Assembly: GCA_012295275.1 (NCBI GenBank)
Contig: CM022673.1
Span: 3,286,001 to 3,350,000, forward strand
Reading direction: 5' to 3'
DNA from: Chrysomallon squamiferum
Lineage: Eukaryota; Animalia; Mollusca
DNA length: 64,000 nt
The notes beneath the pieces were generated by a model, which was given only the letters and a program-made list of their open reading frames with translations, was not told the origin of the DNA and searched no databases. This document shows positions 4,107-4,790 of the stretch, one piece after another (the stretch's first letter is position 1; each line of letters opens with the position of its first letter). A program made the position numbers and the translations under genes.

Positions 4107-4790
4107 ATGGACAAACTTCACGAAATAATTTCCGTCAGCCTCATAGTGGCAGTGGCTGTGACGGCAGCGTACGCCGACTCCCTGAAATCTTCACATTCTG
4201 ATAAATCTTTCGGACACGACGGGGGACACGATTCCTTTCAGAAATGGTACGACTGGTACAGCAAGCGTTCATTCGGACATAACAAATCATTTGGCAAAGA
4301 CGATCCGGAAACTCTTCAAAAATGGCACGAGTTTTTGGCCAAGCGAGGAAGCTTCGACTCCAACGGAAAATCTTTCGGAGAACAAAGCTGGAACGCTTGG
4401 ATGTCAAAGAGAGGATTTGGCCCGGACAGCACCAATGGTTTCGGGAAAAGCATCTCTGATCATTATTAGAAATGGCTGCTGAAACGTGGAACTGCTTTTG
4501 GCAGCCAAGCTTTCGGCAAAAATGATCCAGAAACCCTCCAGAAATGGAATGATTGGTGGAGTAAACGAAACTTCGAATACAACCAAGAGTCTCCCTTGAA
4601 GAGAAGCAAGCGCTCTTTCAGTTCAGCACAGCTGGGTTTCGGCCAAGGAAAAAATCCAAATCTACAGAAATGGCAGGAATGGCTGGTGAAAAGAGATTTC
4701 GGCTCCAGTCAAGGTTTTGGCGTTCCTGAGGCACCAAAATTACAGTCCTGGCGTGACTGGCTGACGAAACGCGGATTACGACCTCGGTAG
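4107..4790 (+). CDS. Secreted multi-copy peptide precursor (neuropeptide-like, family unassigned) with an in-frame TAG at 4467-4469; 120 aa if it terminates there, 227 aa if recoded
   Basis: Splice acceptor ttttccAG ends at 4092 and ATG is at 4107. Signal peptide MDKLHEIISVSLIVAVAVTAAYA. KR-separated repeats: ...SFGHDGGHDSFQKWYDWYS / SFGHNKSFGKDDPETLQKWHEFLA / GSFDSNGKSFGEQSWNAWMS / GFGPDSTNGFGKSISDHY*KWLL / GTAFGSQAFGKNDPETLQKWNDWWS / NFEYNQESPL / SFSSAQLGFGQGKNPNLQKWQEWLV / DFGSSQGFGVPEAPKLQSWRDWLT / GLRPR*. ORF-track entries 4080..4469 and 4596..4790 are the same frame. AATAAA at 5284-5289. Confidence 0.9.

What the first reader, a model, noticed from the sequence alone, without database searches (positions are those of the whole stretch)
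4107..4790. Apparently uncharacterised multi-copy peptide family: bipartite xF..xFG module plus QxWxxWxx-KR helix
Seen: seven Cys-free repeats of 20-29 aa. Most begin with a module holding two Phe anchors (SFGHNKSFG, GSFDSNGKSFG, GFGPDSTNGFG, GTAFGSQAFG, SFSSAQLGFG, DFGSSQGFG). Each ends in a Trp-rich i/i+3 motif directly before KR, with no Gly amide donor. I do not recognise it as any named molluscan precursor; it is not MIP/WWamide, achatin or FMRFamide. Inference: the C-terminal half would form an amphipathic helix, superficially like the C-terminus of secretin/glucagon-family ligands (e.g. EWLVK). The N-terminal half loosely resembles pedal-peptide/orcokinin xFD..GF architecture. It could be a neuropeptide, pheromone or venom/antimicrobial peptide precursor.
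Basis: partly seen in the sequence, partly recalled or inferred. Interest (0 to 1): 0.72.

Follow-up and report, generated by a model that had tools for sequence, protein, structure and literature searches.

The report
Tryptophan-helix mollusc neuropeptide precursor
This gene encodes a precursor predicted to be secreted and cut into seven tryptophan-rich, likely helical peptides, probably nerve signals of a barely described family shared with sea slugs and snails (and probably oysters and annelids) whose receptor is unknown; this assembly's copy carries a premature stop that other individuals lack.

Summary
In detail: a 227-codon frame (4107-4790) with a hydrophobic N-terminus and seven KR-bounded, Cys-free repeats, each an FG-bearing flexible half plus a [FL]QxWxxW core with helical periodicity. 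The frame has a TAG at 4467 that 0 of 8 public runs (7 samples) show, so the gene is normally intact; two indels are polymorphic. It is no orphan: HMMER finds the same architecture in unnamed Aplysia and Candidula proteins and six unnamed proteins. Published peptidomes hold matching intact peptides: a 30-mer in Biomphalaria CNS and 24-36-mers of oyster 'Cragi-RTLFamide' in ganglia; chiton, scaphopod and Capitella sequences look alike by eye. So it is most likely a neuropeptide precursor of a little-described molluscan, probably lophotrochozoan, family, not a venom or antimicrobial gene. It fails the motif tests for pedal peptide/orcokinin, MIP, achatin and secretin/glucagon. Receptor and function are untested; a two-part ligand for an orphan family B1 GPCR is my best guess. 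New: the family's breadth and its defining helix, which the name RTLFamide hides.

The parts
4056..4092 (+). Pyrimidine-rich tract ending in CAG: predicted splice acceptor 14 nt before the ATG, so the coding region is likely one exon
   Evidence: sequence; the two runs of sample S5 leave the window at 4094 with the same leader, one base off this acceptor; the first 16 letters of the 30 shown were not found in the window
4107..4175 (+). Predicted signal peptide, residues 1-23
   Evidence: hydropathy above 2.2 for 9-mers starting at residues 6-13, followed by small residues AAYA; SignalP not available
4176..4262 (+). Peptide 1 (29 aa), core FQKWYDW, then KR
4269..4340 (+). Peptide 2 (24 aa), two FG, core LQKWHEF
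4347..4406 (+). Peptide 3 (20 aa); short allele lacking a 6-codon linker that 6 of 8 runs carry behind 4382
   Evidence: piece present in X1, X2, X3, X5, X7, X9; absent in the bridging contig of X4; X6 does not bridge
4413..4481 (+). Peptide 4 (23 aa), interrupted by the stop
4467..4469 (+). Premature TAG, seen only in this assembly
   Evidence: 8 of 8 laid runs (7 samples, 3 studies) show a sense codon here
4488..4562 (+). Peptide 5 (25 aa), core LQKWNDW
4569..4598 (+). 10-aa acidic spacer peptide without the Trp core
4614..4688 (+). Peptide 6 (25 aa), core LQKWQEW
4695..4766 (+). Peptide 7 (24 aa), core LQSWRDW
4773..4790 (+). 5-aa tail and stop; polymorphic end
   Evidence: main contigs of 7 of 8 runs stop matching at 4777 (other letters follow in X5, X7); X4 also has a contig identical to the window across 4777 (4741-4989)
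5284..5289 (+). First AATAAA downstream, candidate polyadenylation signal
   Evidence: position only, use not shown

Best explanation
The frame encodes a likely neuropeptide precursor, predicted to be secreted and cut at its KR pairs into seven non-amidated 20-29-residue peptides, homologous to unnamed Aplysia and Candidula precursors and probably to oyster RTLFamide. Shown: the architecture, the homology to the gastropod proteins, helical periodicity of the core, and that other individuals have no stop at 4467. Inferred from standard prohormone processing (own knowledge): signal peptidase, convertase cleavage at KR, carboxypeptidase trimming, release from neurons or neuroendocrine cells. Inferred from relatives: the two halves stay joined in the mature peptide. 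Guessed mechanism (about 35%): a two-part GPCR ligand, the C-terminal Trp helix docking on the receptor's extracellular domain and the N-terminal xF..FG half activating it, as family B1 ligands do, at one of the orphan lophotrochozoan B1 receptors. The window's own copy is a truncated allele or a consensus error; as assembled it would give three whole peptides.
For: phmmer over 1.84 billion representatives: 14 hits at E<=0.001, of which 4 are such precursors (E 6e-10 to 6e-4), named by sources only as uncharacterized Aplysia LOC101861311 and Candidula CAG5124208; a profile adds 3 more plus one cluster member. A profile built from 7 homologues without the window protein scores it 110 bits, best of 1,000 shuffles 5.9 (the homologues were first found with this protein). 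50 units from 8 precursors share [FL]-Q-x-W-x-[DE]-W-hydrophobic-KR; moment peaks at 100-110 degrees. AlphaFold2 puts a helix on each core and coil on each FG half (low confidence). Biomphalaria CNS MS lists an intact 30-mer ending GLQDWRAT..., like the last unit of P0004/P0005/P0016/P0019, and a second peptide of the same 228-codon ORF. Oyster RTLFamide 24-, 31- and 36-mers were detected by MS; transcripts mainly in visceral ganglia, mantle and larvae. No stop in 8 of 8 runs.
Against: No expression or peptide data for this species' gene. The link to oyster, chiton, scaphopod and Capitella sequences is by eye: they were not retrieved or 74 (one search returned 3 already known proteins of 7,997 candidates) and were not aligned. 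The Biomphalaria 30-mer rests on 1 spectrum (-10lgP 39). The AlphaFold model has mean pLDDT 48. Oyster MS also shows an 18-mer N-terminal half alone, so halves can be split. Most B1 ligands I recall are amidated single-copy peptides; these are free acids in 4-8 copies. No receptor evidence of any kind.
Confidence: 0.72

Rival explanations
1. Same neuropeptide family, but the units are cut again at the single Lys after FG, giving short xF..F-amides (G-K as amide donor) and separate Trp helices, acting on rhodopsin-type GPCRs like pedal peptide/orcokinin.
For: FGK occurs 3 times in the window protein, 3 in P0005, 2 in P0019, 1 each in P0008 and P0017. Oyster MS lists the 18-mer N-terminal half ending in Lys beside the whole 31-mer.
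Against: FGK is absent from 3 of 8 precursors and from 4 of 7 window units; whole peptides were detected in oyster and Biomphalaria; the orcokinin-type motifs FDxI and DS[LI]GG occur 0 times in 8 precursors; the invariant residues lie in the helix, not the FG half.
Confidence: 0.15
2. A gland-recruited copy (venom, pheromone or skin peptide) of the ancestral neuropeptide gene in this species.
For: High polymorphism (two indels, several substitutions) and only 26-29% identity to gastropod homologues. Cephalopod venom glands hold 27 superfamilies of unknown function and recruit neuropeptides such as luqin (passages of the Koch 2026 preprint); its sequence files could not be seen.
Against: No second copy in the 64-kb window; relatives occur in ganglia of non-venomous molluscs; divergence is normal for neuropeptide precursors (own knowledge). 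Net charge -3 to +1 per peptide argues against a cationic antimicrobial.
Confidence: 0.08
3. The locus is a decaying pseudogene.
For: TAG at 4467, a missing linker in unit 3 and an early end at 4790 all lie in this one haplotype; it also differs from all 8 runs at 4522.
Against: 8 of 8 runs have an open frame at 4467; the 18-nt difference is in frame; motifs, KR sites, signal peptide and acceptor are intact; sample S5 contigs look spliced.
Confidence: 0.05

Closest known systems
Cragi-RTLFamide precursor, Crassostrea gigas (Realis-Doyelle et al. 2021, PMC8398477; section 2.7 passage and supplement seen)
   Same: Signal peptide; long dibasic-flanked peptides (24, 31, 36 aa) with an FG-bearing N-terminal part and a core such as FMDWRTLF or YQNWRERF; the gastropod protein P0017 has MMDWRNLY at the like place (by eye).
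   Different: Oyster has 3-4 peptides, one amidated; the window has seven non-amidated units with a second Trp (WxxW). The paper found one relative only (Lottia) and calls the family mollusc-specific; no function or receptor was reported in the passages seen.
Aplysia LOC101861311 (XP_012942544), Candidula CAG5124208, Biomphalaria Locus_8456
   Same: Same repeat grammar and spacing; significant by HMMER; Biomphalaria peptide seen by MS in CNS.
   Different: All unnamed. The gastropod proteins end in a conserved QLG..GLQDWRSTF unit that the window protein lacks.
Pedal peptide / orcokinin / So-orcokinin B (Endress 2022, PMC9410093, passages)
   Same: Multi-copy precursors; F..FG-like segments; some free acids.
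   Different: No FDxI or DS[LI]GG motif; no Trp helix in that family as described.
Secretin/glucagon-type family B1 GPCR ligands
   Same: About 25-30 aa, flexible aromatic N-terminus, amphipathic C-terminal helix with hydrophobic-x-x-W-L (recalled, not from a call).
   Different: No Pfam or PDB sequence match; multi-copy; Cardoso 2020 (PMC7251081, passages) finds no PACAP/secretin-family ligand genes in protostomes, only Cluster B and mostly orphan B1 receptors.

Membership tests
RTLFamide (oyster) family | Signal peptide and long (24-36 aa) peptides between dibasic sites | tested here: met
RTLFamide (oyster) family | FG segment followed by hydrophobic-[QEM]-x-W core | tested here: inconclusive
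   Core present 4-8 times in each of 9 stored precursors and 0 times in 10 unrelated hits, but the pattern was relaxed after seeing the oyster sequence, and the oyster sequence was compared by eye only
RTLFamide (oyster) family | C-terminal RTLF-amide | tested here: not met
   No G-dibasic donor in 8 of 8 precursors. The paper states the Lottia relative also lacks it, so it names one peptide rather than defining the family; the window gene is therefore filed as a probable relative, not as an RTLFamide
RTLFamide (oyster) family | Ganglionic expression and MS detection | not testable with these tools
   no tissue-labelled data for this gene
Pedal peptide / orcokinin | FD[SRE]I or DS[LI]GG motif | tested here: not met
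   0 in 8 precursors; DS(L/I)GGG from PMC9410093, FDRI/FDSI from PMC5455113
MIP / allatostatin B / WWamide | W-x6-W-amide | tested here: not met
   0 in 8 precursors
Achatin | G[FY]xD tetrapeptide between KR sites | tested here: not met
   0 in 8 precursors; 5 units merely start with GFG
Secretin/glucagon superfamily | Sequence match to family profiles or solved peptides | tested here: not met
   0 Pfam families for P0001, 4 unrelated weak ones over 5 members; 0 PDB sequences at E<=10 for the profile
Secretin/glucagon superfamily | Amphipathic C-terminal helix | tested here: met
   predicted only: moment, low-confidence model
Secretin/glucagon superfamily | Activates a family B1 GPCR | not testable with these tools
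   no molluscan receptor sequence or assay available
Trp-rich cationic antimicrobial peptides | Net positive charge | tested here: not met
   -3 to +1 for window units; -5 to +2 over 50 units
Cephalopod venom superfamilies (Koch 2026 preprint) | High salivary-gland expression and sequence membership | not testable with these tools
   main-text passages list mimics of stanniocalcin, luqin, myosuppressin, tachykinin and neurotensin only; sequence supplements are closed

The most novel reading that the evidence does not exclude
This is an overlooked pan-lophotrochozoan neuropeptide family (cephalopod-like host, gastropods, bivalves, chitons, scaphopods, annelids) whose FG-plus-Trp-helix peptides are the missing ligands of an orphan family B1 receptor clade, a protostome counterpart of the glucagon/secretin ligand design.
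Probability: 0.15. Interest if true: 0.8.

Novelty: new variant of a known kind. Interest (0 to 1): 0.5.

Why it matters
Molluscan neuropeptide catalogues are built on short amidated motifs and have left this family unnamed in Aplysia and Biomphalaria, or named it after a C-terminus that most members lack. A conserved, MS-detected, multi-copy family of long helical peptides gives a defined ligand set for deorphanising lophotrochozoan GPCRs, among them the B1 receptors that Cardoso 2020 describes as mostly orphan. It is a new signalling candidate, not a new kind of system, and nothing about its function is shown.

Tried and rejected
Own genome not held, so copy number outside the window is unknown. 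Single-sequence word search found nothing among 262 candidates. Pfam and PDB gave no usable match. Ten of the 14 phmmer hits were dropped as TPR-like repeat proteins matching by a chance EWY..GKDHP pattern (label by eye). The second profile search added nothing. The ESM Atlas was not searched, so look-alikes there are unknown. No RNA holder listed; this is not evidence on expression. The 3' region had no cover in the S5 runs; not used as evidence. No fold search: model too poor. No complex prediction: no receptor sequence at hand. Paper searches for 18 motif or accession terms found 0 papers in main texts; 'RTLFamide' terms listed 8 papers, 1 relevant. These cover only the open library: the cuttlefish neuropeptidome (Zatylny-Gaudin 2016) and Veenstra's Lottia/Capitella lists were not seen and may name the family. 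Curated Platynereis precursor lists showed no matching precursor for five 3-letter cores in the passages returned (5 files not searched). Thiel 2021 supplement: no relevant passage among those shown. Amber suppression: both tRNA-Gln in the window have a normal CTG anticodon. Four look-ups of earlier findings returned nothing.

Full report
Observation. It starts 14 nt after a pyrimidine tract ending in CAG, has a hydrophobic stretch at residues 6-21 and nine KR pairs, which bound seven Trp-bearing units of 20-29 aa, a 10-aa spacer and a short tail. W..[WF]..KR occurs six times against at most one in 10,000 shuffles. There is no Cys and no Gly before a dibasic site. An in-frame TAG at 4467-4469 cuts unit 4. 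The host is a mollusc by its homologues and by a cerebrin-type gene nearby; that it is a cephalopod is my inference from the AT-rich, microsatellite-laden DNA and was not tested.

Is the gene broken? Nine public runs hold most of the stretch; I laid 8 of them (7 samples, 3 studies). All 8 show a sense codon at 4467, and all 8 also differ from the window at 4522, so the stop is a private allele or a consensus error; contigs drop rare variants, so I cannot tell which. Six of 8 carry an in-frame 18-nt piece behind 4382, which supplies the linker that unit 3 lacks; X4 bridges the place without it and X6 does not bridge. At the 3' end the main contigs of 7 of 8 runs stop matching at 4777, while one X4 contig follows the window across it. 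Both indels are therefore polymorphisms. The two runs of sample S5 leave the window at 4094 with the same leader, where the other six run on to 4084; this looks like a splice to an upstream exon, but it is one base off the acceptor, the first 16 letters of the 30 shown are not in the window, and the runs are not on record as RNA, so it is a hint only.

Relatives. A word-based search, Pfam and PDB gave nothing. phmmer over 1.84 billion representatives gave 14 hits: ten TPR-like proteins, dropped, and four precursors with the same grammar, two of them uncharacterized proteins of Aplysia and Candidula. A profile added three, and a cluster look-up one more; a second profile search added none. Across 50 units of 8 precursors the core is [FL]-Q-x-W-x-[DE]-W-hydrophobic, then KR; 31 of 50 have an FG upstream, most often 8-9 residues before the core (units were selected for Q.W, so those two columns are invariant by construction, and window unit 4 is not among them). 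A profile made without the window protein scores it 110 bits against 5.9 for the best of 1,000 shuffles. The cores have helical periodicity (moment 0.50 at 100 degrees, null mean 0.32, maximum 0.40). AlphaFold2 agrees in outline but at mean pLDDT 48.

Literature. In the supplement of Wang 2017 (PMC5455113; main-text passages and supplement rows seen) a 30-aa peptide ending GLQDWRAT... was identified in Biomphalaria CNS (1 spectrum), with a second peptide (8 spectra) from the same 228-codon ORF; that locus is not in the paper's list of novel precursors. Realis-Doyelle 2021 (PMC8398477; passages and supplement seen) describes oyster Cragi-RTLFamide: three or four peptides, MS-detected at 24, 31 and 36 aa plus an 18-aa half, expressed in visceral ganglia, mantle and larvae, with one Lottia relative. 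Its cores (FMDWRTLF, YQNWRERF, LQNLY) resemble units of P0017 (MMDWRNLY) and P0005 (YQNLY, LQDWRSTF). The supplements of De Oliveira 2019 (PMC6425005; outline, passages, parts of files 2-4, two of them cut) hold unnamed look-alikes from a chiton (72449, 94515/6), a scaphopod (100208) and Capitella (CapteP199148, repeats GFG...L[EQ]DWxSLYA-KR), the last at the end of a mixed list just before achatin. These links are by eye; none was aligned or retrieved by my searches. I put the oyster link at about 70%. Other papers: Koch 2026 preprint (outline, passages; supplements closed), Endress 2022, Zhang 2018 (PMC5996578), PMC12368835 and Cardoso 2020 (passages), Thiel 2021 and Conzelmann 2013 (supplement passages only); some searches were seen as listings.

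How it likely works. Shown: architecture, homology to gastropod precursors, periodicity, open frame in other individuals. From established prohormone biology: secretion, KR cleavage, trimming to free acids. From relatives: neural source and intact two-part peptides. Inferred, about 35%: the helix docks on the extracellular domain of a family B1 GPCR and the FG half activates it; lophotrochozoans have B1 receptors, mostly orphan, but no true secretin-family ligands. Against this, the peptides are unamidated and multi-copy, and a split half was seen in oyster. As assembled, the window allele would yield peptides 1-3 and a stump of 4; a stop in the last exon would probably escape nonsense-mediated decay (own knowledge).

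Membership. It fails the motif tests for pedal peptide/orcokinin, MIP, achatin, secretin/glucagon and cationic antimicrobials. It lacks the RTLF-amide ending, so it is a probable relative of the oyster precursor, not an RTLFamide. Absence of a name in print is shown only for the open library and the terms; subscription papers on cuttlefish, Lottia and Capitella neuropeptides were not seen.

Verdict. Real, conserved, probably neural, functionally uncharacterised. A variant of a known kind of gene whose family breadth and defining helix appear unrecognised. Interest 0.5.

Noticed in passing
window 28105-28221 and 28742-28876 (+): Two exons in phase 0 encode a signal-peptide precursor ending KR-NGGT...PDL..K-GRR-stop, like Biomphalaria cerebrin: a cerebrin/PDF gene 23 kb from the finding. 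Pfam gave no PDF match for the exon. PDF is itself a family B1 ligand; linkage may be chance.
   Followed up: partly
window 36268-35840 and 35100-34908 (-): Two-exon cystine-knot protein (CRGGC..., CC...CNCRPC); the second part matches Pfam Cys_knot at E 2e-4, below the cut-off. Bursicon/glycoprotein-hormone/DAN-like; not resolved.
   Followed up: partly
window about 53.8-53.9, 54.5-54.6 and 55.55-55.65 kb (-): Short exons that read like heparan-alpha-glucosaminide N-acetyltransferase (HGSNAT); label recalled, by eye.
   Followed up: no
window 56777-56851 (+) and 61747-61818 (-): Two tRNA-Gln(CTG) genes.
   Followed up: no
window 4430-4449, 4670, 4685, 4728: Several substitutions segregate among the laid runs, clustered in the N-terminal half of peptide 4: the gene is polymorphic in its variable halves.
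   Followed up: no
window 4136-4211 region of the protein, residues 30-35: Peptide 1 contains HSDKSF, which recalls the HSDGxF start of secretin-family peptides (recalled); it is internal, not at a cleavage site, and absent from the homologues, so probably chance.
   Followed up: no
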